Source: Callorhinchus milii (taxonomy: Eukaryota). Taken from it: a stretch of DNA of 64,000 bases. Of this stretch, positions 596 through 60,492 are shown one piece after another. The translations under genes were made by a program, and so were the position numbers. Under the pieces are notes generated by a model. The model searched no databases. It was not told where the DNA came from and saw only the letters and a program-made list of their open reading frames with translations. The DNA lies in NCBI RefSeq assembly GCF_018977255.1, contig NW_024704743.1, positions 8,186,001-8,250,000 of the forward strand, given 5' to 3'. The stretch's first letter is position 1. Each line of letters begins with the position of its first letter.

Positions 596-2444
596 CGCCT
601 CCTGATGTGAAGAAGGATTATAATATAATAATAATGGTTATATCAAAAAACAGGGATTATTCTTATTAAAATATACAAAATATACAGTCAATTCACTTTA
701 CAGTATATTCTGTGAAGCACTTTGAGACGTCTCGAAGATGTGATAAGGCACTATATAAAATTCTAGGATTGTTATTATTAAATACCTGTATTGATTCACC
801 TAACAATAATAATAATAATAATACACGTACTTGCATTTGATATAGTGCCTTTTAATGGGGAGGATGTCTCAAAGTGGTTCACAGGAGTCACTAATGTGTA
901 GTGACTGTATTTTTGTAGCCTGTCAGACTTTTATAGTGTATTTCCATGACTCCAGGGACGATGGATTTCACACTCTGTGGTGTAAAAAGATATTTTCTGA
1001 ATTCTGCCAATTAGACTAGTGAACAACTAATTATTCCTGCAGTTGAACTTAATTGTTTTGTCCTTCGTGTTGAATGACATTAATGGTACTTTGCATTAAA
1101 AGTATAGAGTGGCTGTGTTTTTAAGACCAGAGAAAGAAAACTCGGTTGCGTACAGGAGATGAGTGGCCAGGGAACAGCCTTCCTCTGATGATAGGTAAGG
1201 TCTGTGAAGTGGTTGATTATTAAGCCAAGAACAATCAGGAAGAAGCATCAGAAAAGCACAGTACTTGTCACCATGACGGGTGAGCCTCAGGCTGAAGCAA
1301 ACAAGGATTGAGAATAACTTAATATGAGGGAAACAATGTCCAAATAAATGTGCTGTGAGATGCCAGGAGAACTCAGAGATATCAAATTAGAAAAGTCAGA
1401 GGCCCATAATTCCTCATGGTTTTAGCTTTAAGACTACTTTCTTTAAATTGTCAGAATCTTGGAAAACTCTTAAATTCAGTCGTAATTTGGAAGTCGGTTT
1501 TCCGCGGTTCTTGTGTAATATTTAATAACAGTTTATCTTTTAGACTGCAACATCTTGCACGCTAAACTACCGTAAAATATGCGAGATTGTTTATTACAGG
1601 ATGACCCCAGTTAATGCACTGTGCTAGATCACAAGTCCTCTTATTACATGGGCGTCCTGTGGACGTATGGTTACTGGATGTATGGAAGGCTCCCAACTTC
1701 CCATGTTGACCACTTGGCTTCATGTGTGGGTGTGCATGAAGCTGGCAACTCAGCACATTACTGCTCTTGTGAGAATTCCTTCTGCATAGGGAAAACTTAA
1801 CGTAGAAACTTGAGCAGGGAAGGAATGGGGGGTGTTGGGAGTGCGGGTTTGAGGGAGGGGGCGGGGGGGCGGTGCTAGGGTAGCTGAAGGTGCAATGGAA
1901 GTTTTGACAGGTTTGAAAGCAAAGCGTGAAGGACGAGGGAGGTGGAGTGATTTTGGAAGACAGCTCCAGAGGCTTCAACACTGTGACAATGACAAGGTGA
2001 ACACGATGAAGGTCAGTGTTTGTTGCCAACAGTCAAACACATTGGAAGCTCTTTGATGGTTTATGGATGTTTAGTGCTGCTGAAATATGCAGTGGCAATC
2101 AAGGCGTAATTTGATAATGTGCTATTGCAGATAGTCGTTTACAGAAAGTGGGCTGTTTCTCCCAGTCCTAATTCAATGCCGAGCTGTCTCATTAATTTTG
2201 CTACTACATATTTAATTTCCAGTAGCGAGTGAATCAATTCCTGCCACTTTACAGTGCGTAGCTCGTAAAGTTGCACTGAAATTGATTGGATGCAAGGGAT
2301 ATAAATAGAAGCACTGTAGCTTTTCAATGTAACCAACACATGAAGGTGACCAACCGAAACATTGCTTATCTCATTTGTAACCTTAGGTTTGGTGGTGATG
2401 GTGGTGGGGGGAGGGGGAGGAGGCATGTGAAACGTAATTGAGTA

Positions 2445-2725
2445 TCTTTGGGATCTGAGTTGGTTCCAAGTTGACACACCTGGCAATGGAAGATCGGAAT
2501 TGTGTCTCTGTAGTCCAGTTATTAATACAGGCAGCTCCGCTGTTGATGGCGATTAGGTTGGCTCATTGGCAGGACATGAGAAACGTAGACCAGTCAATGG
2601 GGGCTGTGACTCTTCCCATTTGGCTCCTGTTAACTCTTAAAGCCAAAGCTCTAAGTGTAGGATGGTCCTAGCTGGACAGATAGTTTTATCTGGTTAAATT
2701 CAGCAGTACCCCACTTTTCTATCTG
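2445..2725 (+). mobile_element. Family X diverged internal fragment
   Basis: GCTCATTGGCAGGAC...GCTCCTGTTAAC...AAGCCAAAGCTCTAA...CAGCAGTACCCC collinear with 19480-19640. Confidence 0.6.
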
Positions 2726-2729
2726 GAGA

Positions 2730-12837: not shown

Positions 12838-12957
12838 TCTCCTCTTGAGACTGAAGAGTCCAAACGTGTCTAATCATTGCTTACAGCTCATTCCTCTAAC
12901 ACTGGGGATCCTCATCATTGCTCTCCTTTGCACTGCCTCTAGTGCCTAGACACCTTT

Positions 12958-13881
12958 TATTTTTGGTCAGCTGGGTGCCTCTGACACATGCGGAAAGCCA
13001 TCACCGTGCTTAAGAGCGTACAAACCAAGCTAAGATTTCCATGCATCGCACCTACACATGGAAATCCCAGAGATAGATTGTTGAAATGGAATGCGCTCTC
13101 TCTCCCTGGAGGGACACATCCTGCTTACCTAATTCCGAAAAGTATTAGGCGAAGGTTGGCAAGAGCCAAGGCTTGGGGACCCCAGAGTTTGCATTGGGGG
13201 TACTGCTGGACTGCACACATTCCCATTGATATTGCTGTCTGGCAAACTTTCCCGCTGCTTGTCTAGCTAGGACCACCATATCCATTAGGGCTTGGGCTTC
13301 CAGGACTGAGTGGGATGACTCTCTGCCCCCAATGATTGATCTGCCCTTCCAGGTCCTACCAATGAGCCAGGCTCTCTGTGCTGTCATACAACAACAACAA
13401 CTTGCACTTATGTGGCTCCCTCCACACAGGGTAGCGTCTCAGAGCGCTTAACAGTGGCGGAGCCTGACTCCGAGCCGGGGTATGTGGGTAGGTGGGTAGG
13501 CCCTAAGCACGTTGAAGAGGAAGGTTTTCAGGTAGGACTTGAAAAAGGCGGAGGGATTGAGGGAGTATGTCCCAGAGATTCGTGACATAGGGGCTGAAAG
13601 CGCAACTTCCAATGGTGGGGTGGAAGGTGCGAGGAATGAGCAGGAGGCCAGTGCCAGTCAAGTGGAGGCACCGGCTAGTGGATTGAAGAGTGAGGAGGTT
13701 GGAGAGGCAGTGCCTTCATCAGCAGCTCCTGGAATACTGTGGATCAACCTGGATCAGGAATCGGACTACCGAGCCACGGAGGGTTTGCTCAATTCCAACA
13801 TTTCATTGGCAGTGCATGTCACCTTGGAGCCAGTTTAATTCCAAGGAGACCGCCCTTACCTTGCCCCCAAGGAGGACAGTC
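12958..13881 (-). mobile_element. Family X copy interrupted by an L2 3' fragment (13388-13709)
   Basis: Collinear with the reverse complement of 19308-19880 on both sides of the L2 insert; T-tract at the left end. Confidence 0.75.
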
Positions 13882-13959
13882 ACTATTCTCTAAGCAGCTA
13901 AATGTCATGACCAGAACTGTATCTTAGTCTAGCCTGACCAGAGCACTATAAAAGCTTGT

Positions 13960-16909: not shown

Positions 16910-17120
16910 TGTTTTTTTTTGTTAGCTCGATGTCTGGCACATACAAAAACCTATCCCCATGCTTAAGAATATGCAAACCAAACTGAGAGTACATATGTAC
17001 GCCATTCACACCTGGAAATTTCTCTGTGTCTGGAATAGAATGTGCACTTTCTCCCTGGAGGGATGCAACAATTCCAGAGAGTATTAGGTGCAGGCTGGCA
17101 AGACCCAAGGCTTGGAGAAA
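16910..17120 (-). mobile_element. Family X diverged 3' fragment
   Basis: T-tract followed by CATGCTTAAGAATATGCAAACCAA ... CCAAGGCTTGG, as in the other copies. Confidence 0.65.
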
Positions 17121-17564
17121 TGAATTTTATAACCAGCCATCCCTCTACAGCATCCTCTATCCTATCCATTAGTTGTTTGGCCTGACATGGTTGTAACCAT
17201 AGAAATGTGTGACTCGGTAGGAGAGCATTCAACCAATTGTATTAATGTCAGTGCTTTTTTCTCCATCCGAATCCCGATTCTCTGCTCTTTCTCAATTTCC
17301 CTCTAATACCCTTCTTCCAATTTCTTCTGATACCAAACATAATGTTCGGCAAAATACGTTTGGCATTTAGACGTGCCTTTTCACGTTGGGAGGAAGTCTC
17401 AATTGTTTCCATTTATTAGTGAGTCCATAACTAGAGGACATGAATATAATATTAGCTGCAAGTAGATCTAATAGGAAATTTAGGAGGAACGTTCTTACAC
17501 AGAAGTTGATGAGATTGTGGAACTCGCAGGCAGAAGCAAATAACATCAATGTATTTAAGAGAAA

Positions 17565-18670: not shown

Positions 18671-19307
18671 ACAGGGGCTGGAAGAGAAACTGTTGGCAGA
18701 GACTGGAGAAAACTGGAAACATACATGAGGGAGAAGGGAATAGGAAGGGTGGGGGCTCGTATGGCATATAAACAGTAGCATGGATTACTTATGCCTGTTT
18801 CCATGCTTGTTCTCTCTATATAACTCCATGAAAGATCACGGGGGTGAGGGTACCTGAGGGTGTATCTTGAATTGTGTTTTGCAAAGCCTTCAGGAGAAGA
18901 GCAGGGAAAACTGGCAGAAAAGGGCAAACTCATGCGTTGATAAAAAGTGTTGACCTAAAAGTACTCCAATTATATTTGACGTAATGTAAATGTCAATTAT
19001 TAAAAGATTAATGGTCAGGGACTTCCGCAGGTCTTTTAATTACAAGCAAGACTGTACATGTTTCAATCTGACCTAATCTGAATAATATACAACTACATGC
19101 TTACTTGAGTTGCCAGAATCTGCCCCGGGAAACTTATTAGCTGAAATGTGTAGTGATATCATGAATTTGACTGCTATACTAACTGCAACAGTGGTGACAG
19201 GCTCTGACTGCTCCCTGAGTACTTACTCTGTCATTTCATTTCATTCATCACTGAAGGTGCTGTGTGACAGTGTCTGTCTCTCGGTGGAGTGACGAGGCTC
19301 CTGTCTT

Positions 19308-19880
19308 TGACTTCCTCCTTGTGGGGAGGTAAACAATGTCAACTTGGAGCTGAACTGGCTCCAAAATGAATTGCTTGGCAATGGAATTTCGGAATCGAGC
19401 CAGCCTTCTGCGCTAGTCTTGGTAGTTCAGTTCCTGAGCCAGGTGGGTCTGCGGTATTCCATGGCACTGCTGATGACAGCACAGCTCATTGGCAAGACCC
19501 GGAAGGGTAGACAGGTCATTGGGGGCAGGGAGACATCCCACTCAGCTCCTGTTAACACTACAAGCCAAAGCCCTAATAGATAAGGTGGTCCCAGCTGCAA
19601 TATCAATGGCGGTTTTGGCTGGTTAGACACCAGCAGTATCCCAACCCATACTCTGGGGTCCCCAAGCCTTGGTTCTTGCCAACCTATGCCTAATACATTC
19701 CGGAATTAGGTAAACAGAATGTGTCCCTCCAAGGAGAGAGCCTACATTTCCATTCCAACAATCTATCTCTGGGATTTCCATGTGTAGATGCGATGCATGG
19801 AAATCTTAGCTTGGTTTGCATACTCTTAAGCATGGTGAGGGGTTTACGGATATGTCAGACACCCGGCTGAACAAAAAAAA
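19308..19880 (+). mobile_element. Unclassified structured A-tailed retroposon ('family X'), longest uninterrupted copy
   Basis: Ends ...CAGACACCCGGCTGAAC(A)8; homologous to copies at 12958, 16915, 24755, 50709, 2445 and 36250; several internal hairpins. Confidence 0.75.
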
Positions 19881-20134
19881 CTTCAACTTGGCTGGATTTA
19901 CATTTATTTTAGTCCCTTTAATTCCCTTGACTCCAGGCATGGGAATGAAGCTCAGAACTTGAGCTTTGAAATTTCAGCAAACCTTTGAAACATTTACTGC
20001 CCTTTTTTTTGCTGACTCTTCACTCAATCGTGCTACAGTTATTGCTGTGTTTGCCATTCTTTATTAATTTTGATTCCTGCTGTAATCAAGGGATATTTGT
20101 ATTCAATAAGTGGTCATCTCCCGTTCCTTCCAAT

Positions 20135-23887: not shown

Positions 23888-24754
23888 CCATTCCCCCATC
23901 TTCCATCAATTGCTGGTTTTGTTCGATTGCATCTAATAAACAAAGAACATTGTGGTTTGGTAATAAATTTTGGTATGACACTGCATTTTTCACCTCTGTT
24001 GGAAGACCATAAACAGTTGATTGGAAACAGAAGCCGGTTTGTTTCCTTCACTTGTGACTGCCCAACGTCAAAACACTCTACCGTGAGCTTCCTCCTAGCA
24101 CAACATCATGTGCAGTGGCAGCAACATGTGACAGGCCTGAGATGAACTAAAATTCCAATCAGTTTGTGCACCTTATCACATCGTTAAAATGACTCAAAGC
24201 ACTTCAAAGGATTTGTCAGTAAAGTATAGTGACTGTGCATTTTGTAGGCAAATGCAGCAGCCAATTTGTGCATAACAAAGTCCCACAACCAGCCATGAAA
24301 TGCGTGACCAATTTTATCTGGGGGATTGTTGGCCAGGTCACTGGGAGAAACTCCCTTTTCTTTTTGAATAGTGCCATGGGATCTTGTGAGGTCCTCCTGA
24401 ACAGGCAGACATGTCTTATGTTGATACAAAGGCTCCATTTAATGGGCTTCATCCAATTTTCCAACAGAACAGTATGTGTTCAGATCACACAAGATCACAA
24501 GATTAGTCTGGAAGAAGAAAGCCCTTTAGCCCATCTGATCTTATGAAGTGGCCTGTGTGGAATGCATTCATTAGTGCAAGATACTGTTCCCTTGCATTGG
24601 TGGATTAATATAACAGAATGGCTGCTTTTACAGGGCATATTTCAATATTCTTTCACTTATTCTTTTAAAAATGCAATTAGTGTAATGTGATTATTTAGCA
24701 ACCTGACTTACCTCTAGTAGGTGTGAATGTGTGGTTCTTATCCATTATATATTT

Positions 24755-25072
24755 CAACTGGGTGTCTGAAAAATGCTGAAACCCATCACTATGCTTAAGA
24801 GTATCAAATCAGACTAAGAGTTCCATATTTGGGACCCACGTGTGGAAATGTCAGTGTTTGGAATGAAATGCACACTCTCTACCCAAAAGGACTCACCTGC
24901 TTATCTAATTCCAGAGGATATTAGGCTCAGGTTGGCAAGAGCCAAGGCTTGGGGACCCCAGAGTGTGTGTTGGGGTACTGCTGGTGTCTAACCAGCTAAA
25001 ACTGTATAGCTTGCCATTCAGAGTACTTTCTGGGAAGCTTCCTGCTGTTCGTCCAGCTAGGTTGGAAGAGAT
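24755..25072 (-). mobile_element. Family X 5'-truncated copy
   Basis: Shares GGTTGGCAAGAGCCAAGGCTTGGGGACCCCAGAGT with the 13155 and 50846 copies. Confidence 0.75.
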
Positions 25073-31074: not shown

Positions 31075-32374
31075 TATCGTAAACAACTCGTAACTGGAGT
31101 TGCTTACAATATCTTAACTGTTTATAGTAATATGAGGGTGGGGAAGAGTTGTTGACATGCGTGTACAGCCTTAAACTGATACTCCTGATGGTAAAACACG
31201 GGGGATGAAAACTCAATATTTGTGGTTTGAGTTACTAGTTGAGATTTCTAGTCTGAAAGATTTAGAGTACTCCAGAGTAGAACAGCAGACCTGCCTGGCT
31301 CAGGAACTGGACTACCGAGAAGGTTGACTGAAATCTGATATTCCGGAGGCAAAAGTTCTACAAGCTGACACACACTCATCACTTCACAATAAATAAAAAA
31401 AGTCTCATCAATGACTTTTCATTGCTACTTTTACGTCAGGCAGTTAAAAACGTCCTCCTGTCAAATCGTTCATTTGCCATTTACGCAGATCACACAGGCA
31501 ATGAAAAAAAGGCAAACGTACAGTTACTAAAGGGAAACAATTCAACTGCAAAGGCAATTATCTAACAAGGTTACATCCTGCAATTTGCAATCCTCCTGCT
31601 TTTGGGGGACATTGAGAGTTGCTGACCATCTGCTTTGAAACCAAAGCCTTGTTAGATGCTTAAGCTGGCACTAACACAAGACACTTTATTTACTGGCAGT
31701 GAACCAGCACATTTTATGACTGATTTACGTTCTAATCGAAGCAAAGAGATAGCTTCACATGAGCAAAAGTAGCTAGTTGCCTCCTACTTCTACCTGCTCA
31801 CTGGGAATCCATTCAACCTGATTGATTTTAAGGAGTCGTATTGGCTGCATGTTAAATTATGGGGACCTTTCCTTCCAGGGCTGTCTTGTAATGTGCCGCA
31901 GTCCTTCAAGTCACATTCTTCTTCCCACACATAAAATAGATGCTGCACGGTAGCTGTGGAATATATTATCCTATTCAAGTCAAGCCTGAGGGGAAGCAGT
32001 CATAAATCTATCGACCTACACCTATTGGAAAGTTCAAAAGAGAGTTACAATTCAGATTAAAACACACTGCTGCATTGTCACAAGTTCCCTCTTTCAGATG
32101 AGTTGTTTAACCAAGATCCTGCCTGCCTGTTTGCCTGTTGTTCAGGTGGACATTAAAGATCCCGTGAGACTATTTAAAAAGGGTGTTTTCTCCTTTTATT
32201 TGGATTAATAATCCTTCAGGTTAATTAGTGTTTCAGCTCCTGCTGTTTGGGGGACCTTCCTTTGTGGAAAATGATGGCTACATTTGCTTGTAAAAATTGT
32301 GTCACTATGTTTGACAGCAATTACTGGAAAGCACTTTGAGACATTCAAAGTAATGAGATACTGTAAAATGCAAG

Positions 32375-35036: not shown

Positions 35037-35805
35037 GTATAAGTCAAATAAAATCCAATTTTAAAAATATAATAATAATAATCCTTGCATTTGATAGCGT
35101 CTTGTCATGTCTTTGAGATGTCACAAAGCTCTTCACAGAATATACTGTAAAGTGAATTGACTGCATATTTTATGGACAAAATGCGGCAGCCAATTGCACA
35201 CAGCAGTATCCCACATGTAATTAATAATCTACATTGGGTTGGTGTAATTCAATTCAGCCGTAAGTGCGCATGCGGTAGTTCGTCACTGCAGTCGGTAAGA
35301 GTACATGCGACGACAGATCAGGATAACATTTCCCGTGATTCAATGCAGCTGGTAAGTGCGGGAGTAGTAGAGGTACTGACTGAGAACTTGTGAATTTGCT
35401 TCACCAAATATACCTTGCAGATATTGTACTGTGTCTGGTCTGCTTCTCCTTGACGAAGGGTTCTATCTATATTGCAGACAAATTACTATTCTGCATTGGT
35501 AATCTTCAGGTGCCTTTTCAGCACACCACACCAGCTTGTGTAACTATTAGGGCTAATAGAAAAATTTCCCTAAACAGCTGCTGTGGGAATACTGTGCTGG
35601 AAGTCAGTCCACTGTGGATGGTGATGATGAACTTCTTGCTGTGAAATTCACAAATTCTGCTGACAACTCTTACCATATGGATATAACTGAGAGGAGCTCA
35701 GGAGCTTTAGACATGTACAGCCCAATTGCCGTGCTTTGTGGTTAGTCAGCTCGGTGTCTGACACAGAGATCCATCATAATACTAAAATACTAAATGGTCG
35801 ACTGT

Positions 35806-36176
35806 GTGGAGTCCTGTAGCTCAGTGGTTAGCGCACTCACCTCACAAATGAGAGACCTGGGTTTGATTCCAGGCAAGGTGAAATGTTGGGCAAGTTTCCT
35901 TACTCCACACGCCTCTGTTTACTAGCATATAGTACATAGGTACATGGTTGTTAGTTGATTGGTGGATCGCTTTTCCAGGGGTAATAATTGCTTTAAAAAA
36001 AACTGCTTACCGAATCAACGACTGTTTATGGGACACTGCTGTGCACAATTGGCTGCCACATGTTGTCCACAAAATATAGTCAATTCACTTTACAGTATAT
36101 TCTGTGAAGCGTTTTGAGACATCTCAAAGATGTGATAAGACGTTATATCAAATGCAAGGATTATTATTTATTATTA
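35806..36176 (+). mobile_element. tRNA-headed SINE, long subfamily, full length
   Basis: GTGGAGTCCTGTAGCTCAGTGG start through the (ATT)n tail. Confidence 0.87.
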
Positions 36177-36249
36177 TCATGCCTAAGAGTCTCCAAACCA
36201 AACTACTGAAAGTTCCACATATGAATATTTTTAGTTTGTCTGCTATGAT

Positions 36250-36470
36250 CGAAGAGACCACCCTGTTTACCGAATCCCAGATTGTTTAGGGATACATTGG
36301 CAAGAGGCGGTGTTGGAAAACCCCATAGAGTGCTTTAGGTTTAACCAGCTACAAAGTTTAACCAGTCTACAGAGTGCTGGCAAACTCCCATTGCTTGAAC
36401 AGCCAGGACCGCACTACCCATTAGGGCTTTGGCTTACAGGGATAACAGGCTTTGAGTGGGATGATTCTAA
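36250..36470 (-). mobile_element. Family X diverged internal fragment
   Basis: TTGGCAAGAG...CCATTAGGGCTTTGGCTTACAGG...TGAGTGGGATGA collinear with 13130-13320. Confidence 0.6.
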
Positions 36471-39429
36471 ATAGCTGTGACTGGTGTCCTCCTCCAAATC
36501 CTGCTAATAATAATAATAATCCTTGCATTTAATATAGAGCCTTATCACGTCTTCAAGACATCTCAAAGCGCTGCATAGAATATACTGCAAAGTGAATTGA
36601 CTGTATATTTTGTTGGCGAAACGCGGCAGCCAATTGGGCACAGCAGCGTCCCACAAACAGTTGAGGATTCAACGGCTGTTCCATTAACAATGCTTTGGAG
36701 TTTTGTGCACACGATTGGCTCAGGTATTGGGCTATTGAGATCATCAAGTGAGGATTAGTTCAATTCCAACCTTCCATTACCAAGTATGTCGCTATGCACT
36801 AACTCAGCCCCCAAAGACCCACTTACCTCACTTATTATTGCAGAGATAATAAACAGGGGAACAAACAGTGAGCTTTAAAACCACGACAACATTTTAAATG
36901 ATGTGGAATGTCTTGCTGAATAGGGTGGTGGAAGTTGGAGTCCATTATAGCTTTCAACAGTGAAGTAGGCAGGTTTATGAAAGAAAGGAGCTTCAATGAG
37001 GTTAAGGTGGGGCCATGGAATTGAAGTAATCTCTTTGCTCTGTGAGCCGGTGCAGACTCGATGGGCTGAATGGCTTCTTCCTGTACTGTAGATTTCTATG
37101 TTTCTATCTGATGGGGACAATATTCCTTGAGTTTGAGATTTGGCGTCTTGTCATGTGTCATCCTGCTTGTGCATTTGTAGGAGATATAAATATAAAAAGG
37201 TACAGTAGGCAATTGGGATCCTAATATTGTAGTTACCTCCAGTAGAGAAACTAGCAACAGCATGAGTTTGATGGATTGAATGGCTGCCTTGAATGCTGCA
37301 ATCTCTATGAGTTTCTCCCTGCAGTTTCAACATGACAACCACCTGAAGGCTTTTGAAGATGATGTGATCAGCTTATACTTGAACATATTCCACCATCAGA
37401 GGGCAACAGGAAACTGTGCTGTTTCGTGTATTGAAAGAAATTGTAAGCAAGGCTCAACATTGCTCAGTATCCTTGCCCCAAAACTTAAAGTGTAAGATGT
37501 TGCAGAAGTTTGGAAAATTCCTAAATTCAATCTTAATATTAGCTTGATATTAGAGCAGAATAGTTTAAAGGATTATTTGTTTGGGGTATTTAAATAGTGA
37601 AATAAATTGATTAGGTAGTGTGCCCAGAATCTCTGGAACTCCCTGCCTCAATCCTTCTGTCTTTCCTCTTCTTTGCCCATCTTCAAATCACACCTGAAGA
37701 CTTTCCCCTTCGACAGGGCTTTTGGTCACCTCCCCTCTCTTTCATTGACCCAAAGGTGCTACATCAAAAGTAAGGATTAATATTATTATTGTTATAAACA
37801 CAACAAGTGATTGCAAAGATCCTCAGACCTTCAGCTTCCATTTTTTCCAGCAAACCCTGACTGTCACAAACATGTTAATGAGGTTGGGGGTATAACTAAG
37901 TGGAAACATGTTGCTTTAGGATTAAATAGGTATTCAGGATTATAGTACTTGCATTTCAAATTGATCTTAGTATATAAAACATAAATTTGGTTCTGTATCT
38001 ATGTAGATTGCCCTCATTATACTACTGAATAGGTTTCTGTTTAGTTAGTTCGCATAAATACAAATTTGCTAAATATCTTCACGATTACACAGAAAAGGCA
38101 CCTGTAAACCATTATTTATTGTGTTGCTTGAAATCTGGTACAACACAACATATTTAATTCTATTTGTCAATCCTGGCTGATATGATATATTGCATTGGTA
38201 GTTTTATTGATGCAAAACTGAAAATATGTACAGTATTTAAACGCTCTGTACTTAAACAGTTTTTTCCATGAAATGCTAGTCATAAGATTGCCAGATGCTA
38301 AAAATAAATCTTACCGGAAAACTGAACCATGTGACAATACAATAACATGGGAACAGAAAGAGGCCATTCAACCCATCAAGTCTACACCACCAATGAATCA
38401 AGTGACCAGAGCTAATTCTCATTTATTCCTGCATTCTATAAATACAGTATAGCTTGAAGATAGATCTTTATAGTCACACTTTTATCAACAAGGAAAATCT
38501 AGCTCCTTTATGGCTCAGTGAATCAATACATTGTCTGGTATACAAATCCTCTGTTCACTCTTTAATACAATAAAATAGATATAAGCTCGGCTGGTGATAT
38601 GGGTGCTATCGTCAGCCTCCATGGCTTTGGGATAGGGAGGGGGTACAGGGGATACCAGGATTCCTATTTCCAATCCAAATGATTCTTACTGAAAAGCACG
38701 CATTTGTGAATTGCGGGTAATGGCAATGCCGTTACCTGGATCACTGCCATTGTCTTGTTCCACTTAGTAGCAGTTTGTTTCAGGAAAACAGATTTACATA
38801 ATATTTACAGCATGGAAATGGGCCACTCAGCCAAATAGTCCATGCTGCTGTTTATACTCCATGAGTCACCATCCAATCCTTATGTGTCAACCCTTGAAAA
38901 TGAAGGCAAAGCTTGTGTCAACCCTTGAAACTTGAACTGATTGCATTCAGCCAATTTCTTATGGTTGTGGCTGTGGGGAATTATACTTAGCCAGTATGGC
39001 CAATGCAGAAAGTCAATAAAGTACTCCGGTAATTAGGATCGTTAACAGAATTAGCATAGTATTATAAATGAATCCAACCTACTGCCTTCTGGGGTTATTC
39101 CTTTGTTGAGATATCTCATTAAATAGGTCTCAGTCTAAATTGATCAGCCAGCTAGTTACAACAGCCCACTTTTGCCTTCTTGCTCATTTGAAAACATGGT
39201 TGTGAGTCCTCGGACCCACGGTGAGTCAGAACACATCGTTCACTCTGCCTCACATTCCAGTATTCTCTTGCGTAGTGCTCTGGGACGCTACCCTGCGGGA
39301 GCAGCACTATATAAATGCAAGTTGTTGTTGTTGCAGTGTAAGTCCTCAACCTCTTAAGATTGGGCTCTTAAATGTCATTCTAATGGGGGAATTCCTTAAT
39401 TAAAGATTCCACAAAAACTGGTGAACGAA

Positions 39430-50361: not shown

Positions 50362-50539
50362 TCAACTGCGACCAAATACGGTTTCATATTCTGTTAGGAT
50401 CAATTCCACTATTTGATTCTGATAGACCATGTGCACTGCAATATTGCCAGTCTCTTTCTCTGGCTTCAGAAGGGTTGGACCAAATACTATTGCAACGCTT
50501 TGAGTGGTCATTCGGTTTAGCTCACCGTTGGCAACAATC
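50362..50539 (-). CDS. ARHGAP12: ARHGAP12 terminal coding exon: IVANGELNRMTTQSVAIVFGPTLLKPEKETGNIAVHMVYQNQIVELILTEYETVFGRS*
   Basis: ttcttcctag|G acceptor in phase 2, matching the previous exon. NRM...AIVFGPTLL motif; TGA stop at 50362-50364. Confidence 0.94.
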
Positions 50540-50708
50540 CTAGGAAGAAAGAGCAAAGCAAAGTCTCAAGCCAGCTTAAGTGTACATTCATGCTGAAATA
50601 TTACACAATAGCCAAGTATTGGCCAGCACACAATTTAATTTGATCAAAGTGGCATACCTAAGAACTCAGATAATAAGATAGATAATGACTCCCATATTTC
50701 TGGTTATT

Positions 50709-50953
50709 TATTTTTGGTCAGCTGGGTGTCTGACACATGCGGAAACCCATCACCATGCTTAAGAGTATCCAAACCAAGCTGATTCGAATGTGCATTCTGT
50801 TCCTGGAGGAATGCATCCTGCTTATCAAATTCAGGAAAGTACATAGGTTGGCAAGAGCCAAGGCTTGGGGACCCCAGAGTGTGCATTGGGGTACTGCTGG
50901 AGTCTAACCAGCTAAAACTGCATAGCTTGCCATTGATATCATTGTCTGGCAAG
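50709..50953 (-). mobile_element. Family X 5'-truncated copy with 15-bp TSD, in the last ARHGAP12 intron
   Basis: ATATTTCTGGTTATT at both 50694-50708 and 50954-50968; body matches 12960-13250. Confidence 0.8.
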
Positions 50954-51604
50954 ATATTTCTGGTTATTGAATCTCAATATATTTTATTGACTATTTGTTG
51001 GATATAAACTGAGCCAACACAACATTGATCAGCCATTGTATATCACTAAAAGGCTTCACAGATGCCTGTAAAATATGAATTAATAAAAATTCTGTGCAAA
51101 CAATTCAAAACCACACACTATTTTAACTGGAAGGCAAGCTTGATTAATTCATGCTTGCTAACTCACTTTAATAAAAGAACTGGATGTTGATGTTAAAAAA
51201 AAATGCTCAATGGAGCCTATCTGAAATGGTATGGACTAAGTGAATACAACAGTGAATACTAAGTGTATAATTGCTAAGTATATACAACACTTAGTAATAA
51301 CAACAAAAATATGAATTTGGATCTAATCCAAAATTACATTTGTATAGCGCATTTTCATGTCAGAAGGACGTCCCAAGGCACTGGACAGTCAGGGATTTGG
51401 ACCCAAGCTGGGGGTCAAGATCGGGGAGGGTGGAGGGCAGGGGAGGTAGCCGAAGGTGTGATCAAAGAGGAGGGTTTTGAGACGTGCCTTGAAGGAGGCA
51501 AAGGAGGGAGCGAGGCGAAGGGAAAGTGGGATGGAGTTTTGAAAGGGAAAATGTAGAAAAGGAATTTTGTAGCAGGAACAAAATCCCTTTATAGTCACAG
51601 TTCA

Positions 51605-51910
51605 AACACTGTTTAGCAGTGAGTTAGCACACTGTCTGTTCAACTCTGATCTGAATTCAGCTTGCAATGCTGAGATGAAAGTCTGTCTTCTGCCTAAAGA
51701 GATTTTCTTATTGTGTGAGTTTATGCATTCTTAATCTAGACACCACAAAAGGTGGTCAACATGGGAAATGGAAAAAGTCACTTTGGTGCAGATGGGGTGT
51801 TCACTTGAGATTTGGATTAGAGCAAAGTAGAAAATATTTTACTTTCCATTAAACTCAAGCCGTAGCTGACTCAGAAGTACTTCATGTGGACAATGGGTGT
51901 CCAAAAATAG
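51605..51910 (+). mobile_element. Highly diverged LF-SINE-like relic in the last ARHGAP12 intron
   Basis: Resemblance by recall to LF-SINE blocks (GATGAAAGTC..., TGAGTTT..., ...TGGGTGTCC); weak. Confidence 0.35.
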
Positions 51911-52344
51911 TCTCTCATCTTGCTAAATGTGGGCTGGGTGGGGCGACGGGGGCAGGGGTGGGGCAATCACAGGGTGGAGGGTGGTAGGGTGAGAGGGAGG
52001 AGAGAATTTTAAAAGAATTCTTTTAAGTTATCCTAAATCTGAAAAACGAAACAGTGGTCACAACAAATGAACAATTTAGGATTAACATCAATAAGAGAAA
52101 ATAAATCACCAGTTCAATTGTTGGATGTGGAAAAATGAAACCCTAAACACATTCCAATATTCAGAGCCTAATAAATTATTCTTAACAAATAGTTATTTTA
52201 CACTTGGATTGTAATAAGTGTTGCAATTTACAAAATGATTAATTTTCAGGCAGAAATATAAGAAAATTATTAAAATTGTACACAATATTGCCCATTAATC
52301 TATGCACATCACAGGAACATTAATGGCAATGTGTTTGTACTTAC

Positions 52345-52450
52345 TTGCCAAGGTGCTGGAAAAGTATTTGCATAGTGTCGTGGTTTGGTTTAGGCAACTG
52401 TCTTATTAGTTCCTTAATATCTTGAACACGCTGCTTGTAGTCTGGATTTT
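52345..52450 (-). CDS. ARHGAP12: ARHGAP12 penultimate coding exon: (K)NPDYKQRVQDIKELIRQLPKPNHDTMQILFQHLG(K)
   Basis: ctttcag|AA...GGC AA|gtaagt; 106 bp, phase 1 to 2. LP..N..T...LF.HL RhoGAP motif. Translated by hand. Confidence 0.93.
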
Positions 52451-54342
52451 CTGAAAGATTTAGAAACCCAATTATTTTTAATGCCTGCAATTTAGATTTA
52501 AGTTGTGTTCTAGAATGGTACCTTGATTACTTCGAGATAATTACAAACCAACTGTTAGCCACCAATGGCTGAGGTGCGCTGGAACACTAGTGGACTGCTG
52601 GGTCTGAAGCAGATGTTAATGATAATAATCCTTGCATTTGATATAGCGACTCATCACTTTGTTGCAATATTCTCAAAGCGCTTCACGGGTTTTACTGTAA
52701 AGTCTAGTGATTTTACTGTAAAGTCAAATTGCACATAGCAATGTCCCACAAACAGCCACGAAGTGAATGATCAAGTTTATCTGGAGAGATTGTTAGCCAG
52801 GACACCAGGAGAAACTCCCTTTAGCTCCCAAATTCGCTTTTGTATCCCACTTCAACAACTGGTTGTCACGACAATTTATTACACTATTAACAGCAATAAA
52901 GGGGAACTAACCACAGTATATATTTATAACTTATTTTATATAATACTTTTTGGCTATTGACTGCACAAGCAGTTTGATTTTACAATTTACTGCCACAGTT
53001 AATTGTTGTCTTTCTTTTAAAACTGATCCAAATGCAAAGCCGGAAAGAAAAAAAGAAATGGCATTCAAAGAAAAGTAATCCAATTATTACTTTATTAGCA
53101 GTCCAAGGCTAACATTTTTATTAATTCAGACTTTCCTTTACTTCATGCATCGTTTAACCTGCATAATCCTTTCACACAGGATTTGGCTTCTACATGTCAC
53201 TCGTGCACTCTACTCCACCATTGACGGCCATGCATTCAGCCACTACTCCATGAAACTCTGTAGCTCTACGCCTCAGGCCCTCTGCATTAGCCCCTCTTTG
53301 CCCATTTTCAGATCGCATCTAAAGACCTTCCTCTTTGACTGTGAGAACAGTCACCTCTCTTCTCCCATAGGCTAGGCATCAGGCCTGTTAAGCTCTCCGA
53401 GTCGCTACCCTCATGAAGGGCGCTATATAAATGCAAGTAGTTGTTGATGACTTTCTGAAGCAATTAACAACAACATTACATTTGTAATAAACACAATGAG
53501 ATATACAGAGAAGGGAGAAATAAGAAAACTGATCAAAAGCAGTCAAACACCTGTCTTTTAAAAGGGTTTTTGAACATAGTGAGAGAGGAGCAAAGTGAAG
53601 AGATTTTGGAAGAGAGTTTCACAGATCATAGGCACAGTGGCCAAAGCTTAGCTACCATTGGTGAGCAAACGGAGTGAGAAACCAGAATCACAAGAGCAGA
53701 AGGCATGAAGGCATGAAGACGACTGTGTAGGCAAGGAATAGCAAGATTGTGAAGATACTTGAAGCGCGAGGATTGTAAAGTCTTCTAGCATACCAGGCAC
53801 TAGACTCAATGGCAAGGATGGGAGCATTCAGCAGTTCGAGCCTGTTCCCCCATTTAATTAAGACCATGGCTGATCTGTACCTCAACTAATCCTTTCAATT
53901 CCGATTTCCCACTTTCTCCCCATATCATTTACCCTGACCTACCAAAAATCTATCACCCTCACTCTTGAAGGTGTGGATGGATCCAGCATTCATGGCCTTT
54001 TGGGGGGAGAGAATCCAATGCTTCTTGATTTCACTCGTAAATGGCCTGGTTCTAATTTTAAGATTATGCCCCTTGTTTTGGATTCCCCCACCAGAAGAAA
54101 TAGCTTCTCTGTATCGACCCTATCAAATCACTTTATCATCTTAAATACCTCAATCAAATCACCCCTCAATCTTCAAAACTCAAGGAAATACAACTCAAGT
54201 TTACGCAGCCTTTCCTCGTAACTTAACCCTTTTAGGCCTGGTAACATTCTTTGAAAGATCTGTCCAACTAAGCTCACTCCACCGCTCTTACCCAAAACTC
54301 CTTCCAGATTGTATTTATTTACTCTTTAAGGAGAACAGTCCC

Positions 54343-55397
54343 AGACTACTCTGCCCAGCAAGTCCAAACTATTCGCATAAAAGTTGATCTTAATAGGGAA
54401 ATGGTGCAACAGGAAACTATTTTAAAAATATTCAGAGTGAAAAGAAGTTTGCCTTGAGAAGCACAATCTTACTGAACCTTAAAATGACTACTGAATCTGT
54501 ATTGTAATGAATCAATCAGGCCATGGGGAAAGTACCCGTGCTCTTGGTGAGCCATTGTGCTGGTGGCTGTAACTATCCTGCCTTCTTGGTTGAAGAATGA
54601 ACTATGGAAGTGGAATCAAATGTGGGGAATGTGAAACTGGTAAAAACTGCAGAAAAAAACTACAGAAATTCAAGCGACTTTGACTTAATTTCAAAATGAA
54701 AGAACACGTTGAACAGAGCTTTTTGATGCTTGATATTCAATTGAGGAGTTTTTAAAATCTGGCTTTTGAACTTCATCTTTGTCCCAAATGGCATCCAAGT
54801 AATAATAATCCTTGCATTTGATATAGCGCCTTATCACGTCTTCGAGACGTTTCAAAGCGCTTCACAGAATATACTGTAAAGTGAATTGAGTGTATATTTT
54901 GTGGGTGAAACGCGGCAGCCAATTGCGCACAGCAGTGTCCCACAAACAGTAGTGGATTGAAGTGACCAATTTTTTTTTTTTTTTGAAGGAATTATACAGC
55001 TATGAAAACTTGTAATATGTTGTACTTGAACCAGTCGAGCCAGAGTAGTCATAAATTTATAAATAACATCCTCAAAATTACACTTGGAAAGAGACAAAAG
55101 GAAAGTACTGAGTTTAGCAAAGCACCACGCTGTGGGTAATCAGTGCACTGCAAGTAAATAACACGCTGGGGGAAACAGCATATAAAGACAAAATGCATAA
55201 ATTTGATGTCACCTCACACTGTTAATCTACTTAATGATGAACCTCTCTTAAAATTCAGTAATTTTAAGCTAAGACTGTGCTCCTAAAGGCAACTTCTTTT
55301 GACTCTGAATATTTTTAAAAATAGTTTCCTGTTGCATCACTTCCCAATTAAGAACAACTTTTATGTAAATAATTTGGGCTGCTGGACAGACTGGTCT
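54343..55397. repeat. Intronic inverted repeat pair, arms ~54343-54496 and ~55253-55397
   Basis: Arms are reverse complements along their length, e.g. TGCAACAGGAAACTATTTT / AAAATAGTTTCCTGTTGCA and CATAAAAGTTG / CAACTTTTATG. Confidence 0.88.
54800..54995 (-). mobile_element. Young SINE 3' half, inside the spacer of the intronic inverted repeat
   Basis: AATAATCCTTGCATTTGATATAGCGCC...GTGACCAATT. Confidence 0.85.
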
Positions 55398-56004
55398 AGT
55401 TTCTGTGATGCTCAAACAAACACTATTACAGCAATAAAGCTATACCAGTAATAAGTAGTTCAAACATTGTAGTACTGACTTTCACAGAATGAAACAAAGC
55501 TAAATACAATTTCTTATTCTCTTCGCCAAAACTACTTGCATGTTCCCAGCAATGGTAATCTAATCTGTCTGCTGGGAGGTGCACAAGTTTCCACAAAGAT
55601 TCTCCTTTTAATATTCTCTTGGCTAAGAGAAGGTGAGAAGGTAAGAATCTAGCCTCTTCTCAGTGCTTTACCACAGCAATATGGTCAAGTCTATACTTTA
55701 GATGGCATACATGCGCGAGAAGGGAACAGAGTGGTGGGGAGTGTTGGAATCGTTGGAATTTTGGCCACGATACCAGTTGAATTCACTAGTTTGGTCGGTG
55801 AGTCTGTAATTAAATGGCATCAATTTAAGATAACAACTTTGCAATTTGCAACTGCACAATTGGGATGACTCAAGGGTAACTGCACTGATTTGATTTTTTT
55901 TATAATTTTAGAACAATAAATACACATTTTCCAAGACCAGTCAGGCATTTAATATGAACTAAGTTTTTCATATTTTTATAGTATTTATAAACAAAGAATG
56001 TAGC

Positions 56005-56918
56005 TAATGTACCTGTCTGACATCGAGTCCTGGACGAGAGACAACTTTCTTCAGCTCAACGTGCGCAAAACTGAGGCCCTCCAGATTGGCTCGCGTCAGC
56101 ACCTCCGCACCTCAGGCGCTGACAGCATCAGCATCCAAGGCTGCACTCTCCACCTCTCAAAGCCAGTCAGGAACCTCGGGGTTCTGTTCGACCCTGAGCT
56201 GTCCTTTCTTCCTCATATCCGCGCCACAACTGGCATCACCTTCCATCACCTCCAAAACATCGCCAGACTACGGCACTACCTCACCCCTCACGCTGCTGAA
56301 ACTCTGGTCCATGCCTTTATCACCTCAAGGCTGAACTATGGGAACTCTCTCCTCGCCGGCCTTCCCGGCACCTCCCTCCACAAGCTGCAGGTCATTCAGA
56401 ACTCTGCAGCTCGTGTACTGTCCCGCACCAGGCTTCGCGACCACATCACTCCCACCCTCGCTCACCTCCACTGGCTCCCCATCCCCCAGAGGATCGAAGT
56501 CAAGATCCTCATCCTCACCTACAAGGCCATTCACGGCCTTGCTCCCTCCTACCTCTCCGACCTACTTACCTGCCCGTACCCTCCGTTCCTCTGGCTCCGG
56601 TCTGCTCCACATCCCCCGCCCCAACCGCCCTACCATCGGTGGCCGGGCCTTCAGCCCCTAGGCTCTGGAACTCCATCCCCCAGTGCCTTCGCCGCCTCCT
56701 CCCTTTCCTCCTTCAAGGCCAGTCTCAAGACCTTTCTCTTTGACCGTGCCTTCAGCTCCCCTCTCGACTCTCTACCCCCTCCTCGCTCCCTCCCTTCCCT
56801 CCCCTCACCCTGACCATTTCCCTCCTGCTCGGGTCCCGACCCAACTGTTCAGCGCCTTGCGACGTCCTCCCGACGTGAAAGGTGCTCTATAAATGAAATC
56901 TTGTTGTTGTTGTTGTTC
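56005..56918 (+). mobile_element. L2-clade LINE 3' end (RT C-terminus, 3'UTR, (TTG)n tail); best-preserved copy
   Basis: ORF 56007-56813 contains NFLQLN..KTE, VRNLGVLFD, LVHAFITSRLNYGNSLLAG, LQVIQNSAAR and LHWLP, all L2 hallmarks. Confidence 0.92.
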
Positions 56919-58592
56919 AACTGTATATTCTGAATGCCAGATAATCATGTTTAAAACATCACTGATTTTTACTTCCATTAAACAATTTAATTCATATAGT
57001 CTAAGCCAATACTCCAATGCAGCACTGGACAATGCACTACATTGTCGGAGGTGCTGTCCTTCGGATAAAACTCTAAAACCAAGGTCCTGTTTGTGCCTAT
57101 TCAGGTAGACGCTAAAGAATCCACTGCAGTACTCGAAAAGAGAAGGGAGTTTCTCCCAGCGACCTACCCAGCAATCCCCCAGATAAAACTGATCATTCAC
57201 TTTATGGCTGTTTGTGGGACATTGCGGTGTGCAAATTGGCTGCTAATTTCACCTACAAAATAAAGTCACTTTACGGTGCATCTTGTGAAACACTTTGAGA
57301 AGTCCTCCCAATGTAAAAGATGCTACATCAAATGCAAGTATTAATACTATTATTAATATTGATGACCAAATCCTGTGGTCAGCAGCAGAGTTCATTTCTT
57401 ATCCCAACCAGGCCATTCGTGATATTTTTTGCCTGACTTAAAATTATGGTTAAACAGGTTACATTACATCATTTAAATTATAATTATTTTGTTTAAAAGG
57501 AACTATGAATCCTTGATTATATCTTTATCCATGACTTTGGTCTAAAAAGAATAAATGGTATAATTGTAAGTGTGAATAAGGGAGCATAAGGTATTCCGAT
57601 TAAAAAGAACTAATTAAATAACAGTAATTAAATTGAAAGACAAGCCAATATAACAAAAGGAATTACTACATTATTACAGCTTAGGTGTGTCAAAATGCAG
57701 AAGCTCAAACCTGCTATAGATGTTGTCTTTTCACAATATACAATTATATACAATATACACGTAATTTGACAGTTTTTTTCCTAGTGTTTTATACCATCAG
57801 AAATTTCAGTGCATTACATTTGCAGTAGAAGTCACATTATTTATAATATTCCTATTTAAAATGGAAGAAATCACGTATCCAATTGTTCACCAGCAAGAGC
57901 AACTGAAGCTGGAGGACACACTTACAAGAGCACATTCCATCTAACCCGACAGTAAGTGACATTTACTAAACCCGTACTTTGAATCCATCATTCACAATTA
58001 TAATCATGGCCAATTTGGTAATTGAGCGTGTCGTGTGCGAGTATTCTCACTGTCTCCTTGATCTATTATTAGTTTTGATTGTGTCCCTCCCTTCTGAATG
58101 CACCTTTCAACCAGTTTGTACCATTTGTGCAGAGGTACTTATATTCCTATATTCTCAAAACATTAAATACTTTTCTTCTAAAATTGGCTAGGCTTTCACA
58201 GCCATCACTGGACAATTATAACAGTTTTTCATTTAACCTTTTCAGATAATCCTCTTTTTTGTTTCCTTTATTGTCATTTTGTTACTGTCAGCTCTTTTCA
58301 CTCAAATTACCGGGTACATAAGGTACTCTAAAATTCTCCTTTCATTCAGAAAGATAATGACCCTGAATTTGAGTCTCCAACATTTCAATAGGTCAGTGAG
58401 CTTCCCATCTCATTTCGACTGACTTACACTTCTATTTTCTCATCTGAAAATAGCACCTACATTATAATTACTTAAGAATCAAGATCTATTGAACGTTTCA
58501 GAAAGAGAATACATCACAACCTTCTGTGAACTGGGAAATGCATTTTTAGGATGAGATGAGAAGAATATCATTGACTTGTGGCTTCTACTTAC

Positions 58593-58727
58593 TGATTGCA
58601 TTGACAAAGTCATTAAAGAGATGATATGTGAAGAGAGGTTCTGGCAGTTCTCTGAAAAACATCTTCAGGGCTCCAGTAATTACATTAATATCCTCCCACT
58701 TGGAGTCTTTGAGGTCCAGTTTCTCAT
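58593..58727 (-). CDS. ARHGAP12: ARHGAP12 coding exon: (D)EKLDLKDSKWEDINVITGALKMFFRELPEPLFTYHLFNDFVNAI(K)
   Basis: ctttacag|AT...ATC A|gtaagt; 135 bp, phase 1 to 1. LKMFFRELPEPL RhoGAP motif. Translated by hand; not in the ORF track. Confidence 0.94.
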
Positions 58728-60492
58728 CTGTAAAGAAGATAATTCATTAGTATGTTCAGGACTGGAAGAAAACCAGCAGCTCACTGTGTATACTGCATTT
58801 CAAAGGTGTATTGTTGCAGAGGGGCAGCTTTAACCAGTAAGGAGTGGAAGAAGGCCCTTCAGGCCATTTGATCTCATTCCTTTCAGAATCCCCACACTAG
58901 TATCCTCCCATTACAGAAAGATGCAGATTCTTAAATGCTTCTAAAACTGCCAATAACTTAGCATAAGGTGGTAAACTTCTTTAGAACAGCACCAAACAAC
59001 GGAAAATTCACAATGGTACAGTGAAGATCTGAAGACGGACTAAGCCACACTATTATGAGCAGATCAGAAGGTGAATTAGTATCTGACAACTCTAAACTGA
59101 CCTGAGTTTCCTTGATGAGCAAAATGACAAGCAAATCATCAATTCTCCAGCATCAACACAGAGAATAGCAATATGTAGAACAGAACATTTTACTTTTTTA
59201 AACAAAAGCATCAGAAACTTTAAGTATCTCATGGTCTTAACTTTAACATTTAAGATCGTGCACATTTTAGCAAATTTTTGAACTCAATCTCAACGTGGAA
59301 GGTAGTTTTCTGCAAGCCTTTTTAAAAACTAAAAAAAGCTGACAAATAAAGGCAGACTTTTCCAAAATTTTAAGACAACGGTCTTAAGGCTAATACTATG
59401 AGAAATTTCGAGCTTAAAAAAAGCATTGCTATTCTGAAAATCATAAGCAGCTTGTGTGTGGTATTCAATTACTTTCATTGTCTGTTTACCTCTGGCCTAT
59501 GTCAGAAATGTCTAATTCTGTGGTTAATTAATGATTGATGTACATTGAAAAATAAAGGTAAGCAACTTTGAAAATGAAGTCCTTCCTCCATAAAGTCTGT
59601 AGAAAAGATGCAAAATGCATGTCCTCCCCAAAAGAAGATAGTTAACATTTATGCAGTAAGAAAACAGGGATGAACATATTAATATTTTGACAATTTTGGA
59701 AGCAAAGATGATAAATATGGCGGAGATGGAAACAATGGAAACTCTATTGTGAGTATGTGGGGGGGGGGGGAGCAGAGAAGAGATAATTTCAGACATAGTT
59801 TACAACCATGGATGTTATGGTCATATCACATACATAATGTTCATATAAACTTATCTTCCAGTTTAGTGAAATTCGTCAAATAACCAGAACTATTCCAATG
59901 AATGGTGTGGACACGTTGGATAATCCATATTAATACTTTTTAAATCACTTTCTTTCCTTCTCAAGCGTAAGAACATAAAAATTTGCTGGGCGAAAGAAGA
60001 CCATGGTCCACCTAGTTTGCCTTCCACCATCCTGGCAGTCGTTTGAAATGCCGTGTCCCAAACTACACACTGTATCCCATGATATTATTTTCTAGCAGAA
60101 ATCTATCTAATTTGTTCTTGAAACAAATGACATTTTCTGCTTTCGCTGTCTCCCTAGGGAGCCTCTTCCATAAGTTTACTACTCGCTCACTGAGGTAGTG
60201 TTTCCGCAGATTTGTTCAGAATTTACCCCCCTTCAATCGCAGGCCGTGTCCTCTGGTTCTACTGTTCAGCACAAGATAAAATTTCAACTACTTTTATCCT
60301 ACCATAAAATATTTAATACAATGCAACAATACAATATAAATTATAAATTACGCTATTTATATAGCACCTTTCAAGTCAGGAGGACATCTTACAGTGCTCA
60401 ATCTGCCAGCTGCCCAACCAAGCTGGGATAAGTGACTGGGGTTGAGCAAGAAAATTCAGAGTTCAGCAGTGCACTGAGGTAGGCCATTTAAA

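What the first reader, a model, noticed from the sequence alone, without database searches (positions are those of the whole stretch)
19308..19880. Abundant unclassified retroposon: no tRNA head, many hairpins, A-tail
Seen: at least 7 homologous copies (2445, 12958, 16910, 19308, 24755, 36250, 50709). Five end at ...ACACCCAGCTGACC(A)n or a decayed version of it and are variably 5'-truncated. The two longest start at about the same point (TGACT.CCTCCTTG.GGG, ~570 nt unit). I see no A/B box and no recognisable protein. Hairpins: CCTCC/GGAGG; TTGGAGC-7nt-GCTCCAA (CCTTGGA/TCCAAGG in the 13.8 kb copy, TTGGGA/TTCCAA in the 2.45 kb copy); CCAAG/CTTGG; CCTAAT/ATTAGG; and GATTTCCATG..CATGGAAATC at 19773-19805 and 13034-13066. 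Inference: a non-autonomous retroposon or retrocopied structured RNA mobilised by a LINE other than the local L2/CR1, whose tails are microsatellites. I cannot name it, and it may already be catalogued.
Basis: partly seen in the sequence, partly recalled or inferred. Interest (0 to 1): 0.7.

Follow-up and report, generated by a model that had tools for sequence, protein, structure and literature searches.

The report
Old A-tailed retroelement tails in chimaera
This is a real, very abundant, old and decayed family of roughly 610-base repeats with an A-rich tail in an elephant-shark-like genome, most likely the cut-short untranslated tail of a LINE jumping gene rather than a new structured RNA, and so probably ordinary.

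Summary
The repeat is real: 8 copies (11 pieces, 4.6% of the window), 8-32% diverged from their majority. Six end at one stem-loop, most with an A-rich tail; one truncated copy has a perfect 15-bp target-site duplication. Contigs show thousands of further copies in two species labels, and one insertion is shared by both. The full unit is about 610 nt, not 570. C. milii gene models contain translated copies, so the host is the elephant shark or a close relative. There is no tRNA head, Rfam family, ribozyme fold or coding frame, and hairpin covariation does not exceed controls. Two copies 'starting at one point' proves nothing, but 4 of 7 measurable 5' ends do cluster just upstream of two hairpins. 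Best reading (0.62): 5'-truncated 3' UTR of an extinct poly(A)-type LINE, not L2/CR1, with a truncation hot spot. I could not reach the LINE's ORF: no genome is held and no window copy extends into one. Earlier AI notes on this genome say the same, untested here. Main rival (0.22): a headless non-autonomous element, possibly RTE-derived. Dfam and Repbase could not be searched.

The parts
19308..19880 (+). Reference copy, 565 nt plus A8 tail; lacks about 9 nt after 19485 and about 38 nt after 19597 relative to the family
19308..19375 (+). Two adjacent hairpins directly behind the clustered 5' boundary (first 80 nt fold at z -2.9; same region of the 13.8 kb copy z -2.4)
19769..19809 (+). 17-bp hairpin; intact in 2 of 5 aligned copies, partial in 2, deleted in 1; best-covered part of the family in contigs
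19854..19880 (+). Terminal 5-bp stem-loop followed by A-rich tail (fixed 3' end of the family)
13707..13882 (-). 5' part of the second long copy; may extend a few tens of nt further 5' (not measurable)
13389..13706 (-). Later L2-type tail with (GTT)n end inserted into that copy
   Evidence: L2 label from its tail, which resembles the tails of the L2 copies
12957..13388 (-). 3' part of the second long copy with A-rich tail containing AATAAA
50709..50953 (-). 5'-truncated copy, closest to the family majority (8% substitutions), in the last intron of a RhoGAP gene, sense strand
50954..50968 (-). 15-bp target-site duplication, 5' copy
50694..50708 (-). 15-bp target-site duplication, 3' copy
24750..25064 (-). 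5'-truncated copy
16910..17215 (-). 5'-truncated, older copy (28% from majority) with A9 tail
2426..2728 (+). 5' half of an old copy; cut off by a tRNA-derived SINE at 2729; 3' half not found
36672..36835 (-). 5' part of the oldest copy (32% from majority)
36180..36505 (-). Middle part of the same copy, between two later SINE insertions
35740..35780 (-). 3' tip, probably of the same copy, beyond the SINE at 35802-36174
31278..31361 (-).

Best explanation
These are old, decayed insertions of one very abundant repeat family with a fixed 3' end, an A-rich tail, staggered 5' ends and, in one copy, a 15-bp target-site duplication, and they are most likely the 5'-truncated untranslated tail (about 610 nt) of an extinct poly(A)-type LINE other than L2/CR1. 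Shown: copy structure, abundance, a TSD, insertions older than nested L2/SINE copies, one insertion shared with a second species label, and no coding frame, pol III box or known RNA. Inferred: ORF2p of that LINE nicked AT-rich DNA, primed on the A-tail next to the terminal stem-loop, and reverse transcription usually ended within the 3' UTR. Also inferred: many insertions ended at one preferred spot just 5' of two hairpins, which makes the tail look like a defined unit. The link to an RT-encoding ORF and the LINE clade (Tx1-, Nimb/Vingi-, RTE- or Zenon-like) were not demonstrated here.
For: Fixed 3' ends in 6 of 8 copies and 5' ends spread over about 300 nt. Perfect 15-bp TSD in 1 of 6 copies tested. 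21,803 and 15,083 contig pieces laid from runs X1 and X6, confined to 19314-19907, most under 95% alike. No pol III B box and no small-RNA head, so no internal SINE-type promoter explains a free-standing unit. No covariation above shuffles, as expected for neutrally decaying copies. The longest sense frame matches only host gene models with exonised copies and two short ORFs, no RT protein, so the unit is non-coding, as a UTR would be. AATAAA in the tails of 2 of 5 tailed copies; vertebrate L1-type LINEs end in AATAAA plus poly(A) (PMC5381506, passages), and most LINE insertions are severely 5'-truncated (PMC3381678, passages).
Against: No copy in the window runs into an ORF: flanks of the 4 longest copies gave 0 of 12 Pfam hits, no mutual homology, and the 45-codon frame above the 13.8 kb copy found nothing (weak test). 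4 of 7 measurable 5' ends lie within about 25 nt; chance for 3 of 6 independent ends is 0.075 (640-nt span), 0.033 (1 kb), 0.004 (3 kb), which fits a defined unit. The copies include the 5' hairpins, so simple stalling of RT at those hairpins does not explain the boundary. GC is 46-52% without poly-T tracts, unlike fish, frog and lizard L1 3' UTRs (PMC5381506), which argues against the L1 clade proper. Short words resembling RTE 5' UTRs and tails occur in order (by eye).
Confidence: 0.62

Rival explanations
1. A headless non-autonomous retroposon of defined length (about 610 nt), mobilised in trans by a LINE that shares its 3' end; possibly a composite of the type unknown part - RTE 5' UTR - RTE tail, like WALLSI1A.
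For: 5' ends of 4 of 7 copies cluster. No longer copy in 64 kb. The first 80 nt fold better than shuffles in both long copies. By eye, several 7-10-nt words of BovB/RTE 5' UTRs occur in the same order in the middle of the unit, and a 9-nt word of MAR1/BovB tails occurs in the last 30 nt (supplement of PMC5786205). Headless 390-610-nt RTE composites exist (WALLSI1, WALLSI1A).
Against: No full-length copy with a TSD (0 of 3 long copies with a 3' end). No promoter or ribozyme found. The RTE likeness needs large gaps, comes from different RTE families and was not tested statistically. The RTE tails shown in that supplement end in microsatellites such as (CAA)n, not A runs.
Confidence: 0.22
2. LINE tail as in the best explanation, but the clustered 5' end marks a real RNA species: a 3' UTR fragment protected from 5'-to-3' decay by the two hairpins, or released near the stop codon, and then reverse transcribed.
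For: The boundary lies directly 5' of the hairpins, not 3' of them. Flanking 80-mers do not fold unusually (z -0.7, -0.1).
Against: Only 4 copies; boundaries of the two oldest are fuzzy. No covariation in these hairpins. Microhomology or an RT stop at a structure further upstream would give the same picture.
Confidence: 0.08
3. Mass retropseudogenes of an unknown host non-coding RNA.
For: Non-coding, locally structured, A-tailed.
Against: No Rfam match. No covariation. Alternative internal segments among copies point to transposon subfamilies. A density of 8 copies per 64 kb is far above ordinary retropseudogene numbers (own knowledge).
Confidence: 0.05
4. Solo LTR, DNA transposon or Penelope-type end (the long copies begin with TG and end near CA).
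For: TG at 19308 and 13882; CA before the A-tail in 3 copies.
Against: Staggered 5' truncation with a fixed 3' end, an A-tail and a 15-bp TSD; no hammerhead core.
Confidence: 0.03

Closest known systems
5'-truncated 3' UTR fragments of poly(A)-tailed APE-type LINEs (L1/Tx1, Nimb, Vingi groups; clade traits partly recalled)
   Same: Fixed 3' end, A-rich tail with AATAAA in some copies, 15-bp TSD, staggered 5' ends, non-coding, high copy number.
   Different: ORF link not shown here; GC-rich and hairpin-containing rather than T-rich like fish L1 UTRs (PMC5381506, passages); 5' ends cluster.
Headless or bipartite RTE-type non-autonomous elements (WALLSI1/WALLSI1A, RTE-N1/N2_Lch; PMC5786205, parts 2-3 of 5 and supplement parts 1, 2, 6, 10 of 15 read)
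   Same: Similar size (WALLSI1A 610 nt), no small-RNA head, long TSD compatible, short words in common.
   Different: No continuous similarity seen; A-tail instead of (CAA)n; no defined TSD-flanked full-length copy.
CmiSINEs (SINE2-1_CM, SINE2B-1_CM) and SacSINE1-CM with L2-2_CM (PMC5499810, parts 1-2 of 6 read)
   Same: Same kind of genome; abundant retroposons; likely the tRNA-headed SINEs nested in these copies.
   Different: They have tRNA heads with A/B boxes and L2 tails; this family has neither and shares no homology with the window's tRNA-headed SINEs.
Zenon LINEs (PMC13343379, passages read)
   Same: Poly(A) tail; present in cartilaginous fishes (sharks and rays).
   Different: Reported from elasmobranchs, coelacanth and hagfish, not stated for holocephalans in the passages read; no sequence comparison possible.

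Membership tests
Non-LTR retroposed insertion (TPRT product) | Fixed 3' end with A-rich or simple tail and variable 5' truncation | tested here: met
   6 of 8 copies share the 3' end; 5' ends at reference positions about 19325 (4 copies), 19556, 19586, 19608
Non-LTR retroposed insertion (TPRT product) | Target-site duplication of 7-20 bp | tested here: met
   15 bp, perfect, in 1 of 6 copies tested
3' UTR of a poly(A)-type APE LINE | Some copies continue 5' into an RT-encoding ORF2 | tested here: inconclusive
   None in the window; no genome held
3' UTR of a poly(A)-type APE LINE | The unit itself is non-coding | tested here: met
   8-9 stops in each sense frame of the majority; no RT protein among profile hits; Pfam blank except one weak, copy-specific hit
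3' UTR of a poly(A)-type APE LINE | Clade assignment by RT phylogeny | not testable with these tools
   No ORF2 sequence of this family available
Classical SINE (tRNA, 5S, 7SL or snRNA head) | Small-RNA-derived head with pol III boxes | tested here: not met
   Rfam blank over three copies; no B box; the same scan finds tRNA heads on 6 neighbouring SINEs
L2/CR1-dependent SINE (CmiSINE, SacSINE1-CM) | 3' tail shared with L2/CR1, microsatellite end | tested here: not met
   Family HMM hits no L2, CR1 or SINE tail in the window; L2 tails here end in (GTT)n
Bipartite RTE/Vingi non-autonomous element | Alignable 5' UTR and 3' end of a known RTE or Vingi LINE | tested here: inconclusive
   Short words only, by eye; Vingi 5' ends shown do not resemble the 5' end
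Bipartite RTE/Vingi non-autonomous element | Self-cleaving HDV-like or twister ribozyme at the 5' end | tested here: not met
   0 descriptor hits inside 9 copy regions; 2 hits in a flank against 25 of 212 background tiles; Rfam blank. Decayed copies lower the power.
Conserved structured ncRNA | Covariation above controls | tested here: not met
   2 of 30 and 0 of 21 pairs with double changes; 64/500 and 349/500 shuffles reach the covariation score; only 4-5 sequences
Catalogued Repbase/Dfam family | Match to a library consensus | not testable with these tools
   No repeat library available; paper searches gave no sequence to compare

The most novel reading that the evidence does not exclude
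Most copies were made not from randomly aborted LINE cDNA but from a discrete ~610-nt 3' UTR RNA whose 5' end is set by two hairpins that block 5'-to-3' decay, so a LINE tail behaved as a promoter-less SINE: a route to SINE-like families through RNA decay rather than through a pol III head.
Probability: 0.08. Interest if true: 0.65.

Novelty: new member of a known kind. Interest (0 to 1): 0.2.

Why it matters
As a LINE tail it matters for annotation only. It fills 4.6% of this window, it leaks into gene models (C-termini of C. milii COPS5 and carboxylesterase entries in UniRef are translated copies), and it keeps being mistaken for a new RNA element. The one open point is why 5' ends cluster just upstream of two hairpins. 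If that reflects a decay-resistant UTR fragment or a true headless element, it would bear on how SINEs arise without a pol III promoter.

Tried and rejected
Whole genome: none held. Exact DNA patterns: 0 hits in metagenomes, GTDB genomes and one viral scan; the one viral hit (46) does not match the family HMM (67). Rfam: nothing beyond chance. RUVBL/TIP49 origin: a Pfam TIP49_C hit (E 4.5e-4, 1 of 12 frames; PDB E 0.075) spans a deletion private to the 19308 copy; other copies and P0121/P0122 carry three extra residues there, so chance. HDV-like reading of the first 25 nt: the loop word resembles the recalled P3/L3 motif, but no full fold is possible and the COPS5-embedded copy differs there. 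Twister, hammerhead and pistol readings: no match (75; pistol by eye only). ORF2 end in the long sense frame: no RT protein; ESM Atlas no usable hit; two of six profile hits (P0124, P0126) are unrelated repeats. A 9-bp repeat at 19339 and behind the tail is internal to the homologous region and taken as chance. Expression: no RNA holder listed; runs X11 and X12 are only guessed to be RNA, are contigs, and mirror the DNA profile, so nothing follows about a discrete transcript. SINEX-1_CM is listed with SINE2-1_CM as a tRNA SINE (13), so not this. Earlier-finding look-ups by sequence were blank 3 of 3 times. A whole-window Pfam scan was not completed, so other LINE ORF fragments in the window are not excluded. 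The search for papers linking XRN1 to LINE truncation (107) listed 5 unrelated reviews; one search is no proof of absence.

Full report
Host and setting. No genome is held for this window. The best protein hits of an L2 fragment are Callorhinchus milii entries (60-72% identity). The window's tRNA-headed SINEs with (AAT)n-type tails fit the CmiSINEs of PMC5499810 (parts 1-2 of 6 read). Two C. milii UniRef gene models end in translated copies of this very repeat. The host is therefore the elephant shark or a close chimaera. A RhoGAP gene runs on the minus strand from at least 63.4 kb to its stop near 50362.

The observation. BLAST and nhmmer confirm all 7 listed copies and add a fragment at 31278-31361 and a 3' tip near 35740-35780. 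That makes 8 copies in 11 pieces, 2,966 nt, 4.6% of the window. Copies differ from their majority by 8-32%. Three are interrupted or cut by L2 or SINE insertions; for none of the 8 did both flanks match another repeat of the window, so the family is at least as old as those inserts. Six copies share the 3' end, a 5-bp stem-loop, and five of them have an A-rich tail. The 50709 copy is 5'-truncated and flanked by a perfect 15-bp duplication; 5 other copies tested show none. The 19308 copy has two private deletions, so the unit is about 610 nt.

Genome-wide view. Laid on 19050-20010 at 80% likeness, run X1 gave 21,803 contig pieces and run X6 (a second species label) 15,083, with depth confined to 19314-19907. 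Summed depth is 1,600 to 39,000 times the single-copy flank; the tool warns that this is no copy number, so I take it only as 'thousands'. One X6 contig covers the unique flank from 19124 and runs to 19330 inside the element (24 other letters and 10 gaps in 207 nt), so this insertion probably predates the split of the two species. The read data cannot place the family's 5' end, because the reference copy itself stops there and the loose-end table was cut.

What it is not. Rfam finds nothing on three copies at any useful score. There is no B box, hammerhead core, twister loop or HDV-like fold inside any of 9 regions. Every sense frame of the majority has 8-9 stops. The longest sense frame matched, among 1.84 billion representatives, only the two host gene models, two short unnamed ORFs and two unrelated repeats (6 hits); none carries RT. 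A weak TIP49_C hit depends on a deletion private to one copy. The family shares no 3' end with the L2, CR1 or SINE copies of the window.

Structure. The named hairpins exist, but whole copies fold no better than shuffles (z -1.6 and +0.1; majority -2.2). Two local regions do fold well in the 19308 copy: the first 80 nt (z -2.9; -2.4 in the second long copy) and the 17-bp hairpin (z -3.9 in the scan, where 60 random windows reached -3.7). Covariation does not exceed controls: 2 of 30 pairs in the 3' part and 0 of 21 in the 5' part have double changes. With 4-5 dead copies this test is weak. Two short stems are unbroken in all copies that have them, but they were chosen because they were conserved.

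The 5' end. With all copies, 4 of 7 measurable ends fall within about 25 nt and 3 lie 230-290 nt further in (the internal fragment was left out). One of the four only marks the ceiling of what can be measured; for 3 of 6 independent ends the chance is 0.075, 0.033 or 0.004 for spans of 640, 1,000 or 3,000 nt. The clustering is therefore suggestive. The boundary lies just 5' of the two hairpins, so stalling of reverse transcriptase on those hairpins would not produce it. Upstream flanks show no mutual homology and no Pfam domain (0 of 12 frames).

Mechanism. Shown: a fixed 3' end, A-tail, TSD, truncation, age and abundance. From established knowledge these mark target-primed reverse transcription by an endonuclease-bearing LINE protein of a poly(A)-type clade. 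Inferred: the template was the LINE's own mRNA and these are its 3' UTR. I favour this (0.62) because there is no head or promoter to transcribe a free unit, the sequence is non-coding, and severely truncated copies dominate old LINE families (PMC3381678, passages). The GC content (46-52%) argues against the L1 clade proper, whose non-mammalian UTRs are T-rich (PMC5381506, passages). Against my reading stand the 5' clustering, the absence of any longer copy here, and a by-eye resemblance to RTE 5' UTR and tail words in the supplement of PMC5786205 (4 of 15 parts read, plus term searches). These keep a headless or RTE-composite element at 0.22.

Earlier notes. Five AI notes on other windows of this genome describe a 560-830-nt A-tailed repeat as the tail of an old APE-type LINE; one reports 41 of 57 cuts within 35 nt and one a long antisense frame. 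Size, density, TSD length, 5' clustering and a 128-codon antisense frame in my majority fit. Sequence look-ups were blank, so identity is not proven, and I could not test their ORF link. They moved my reading from undecided towards the LINE tail but are not counted as evidence.

Literature. Ten searches gave no description that I could match to this family; Repbase and Dfam could not be searched, so it may well be catalogued. The supplement of PMC5499810 could not be read and holds tail alignments that would bear on the L2 comparison. Also seen as passages only: PMC3747384, PMC8501958, PMC4350176, PMC13343379, PMC13295347, PMC5203782. Traits of Nimb, Vingi and Tx1 not cited to these papers are recalled.

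Verdict. Observation confirmed with corrections; interpretation partly supported. Most likely an ordinary, old LINE tail; the clustered 5' end is the only feature worth a follow-up.

Noticed in passing
window 50362-63363, minus strand: Exons of a RhoGAP-domain gene (Pfam RhoGAP E 1e-9 at 58.6-58.7 kb; ARHGAP12-like by recall); stop near 50362. The TSD-flanked copy sits in its last intron, sense strand, about 200 nt above the last exon, with AATAAA in its tail.
   Followed up: partly
P0121 (UniRef A0A4W3GE79) and P0122 (UniRef A0A4W3JYL0): C. milii COPS5 and carboxylesterase gene models whose last 88 and about 50 residues are translated copies of this repeat; probably annotation artefacts or minor exonisation.
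   Followed up: partly
window 19660-19680 and the same place in 4 other copies: An 11-nt interrupted palindrome is invariant in 5 of 5 copies that cover it; too tight for a 5-bp RNA hairpin, cause unexplained.
   Followed up: no
window 19745-19805 versus 24.8 kb and 17.0 kb copies: The segment before and within the 17-bp hairpin exists in alternative forms among copies and contigs, pointing to subfamilies; it has the highest contig depth of the unit.
   Followed up: partly
window 50953-50850 and last 30 nt of the unit: Short words in the same order as in BovB/RTE 5' UTRs and tails printed in the supplement of PMC5786205; by eye only.
   Followed up: partly
P0123, P0125 (unnamed 900-nt contigs): Two diverged short ORFs match the 5' part (40% identity for P0123), possibly copies from other cartilaginous fishes.
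   Followed up: no
window 19124-19330, run X6: The unique flank and the first 23 nt of the element are present in a second species label at about 88% identity: a shared insertion usable as a phylogenetic marker.
   Followed up: no
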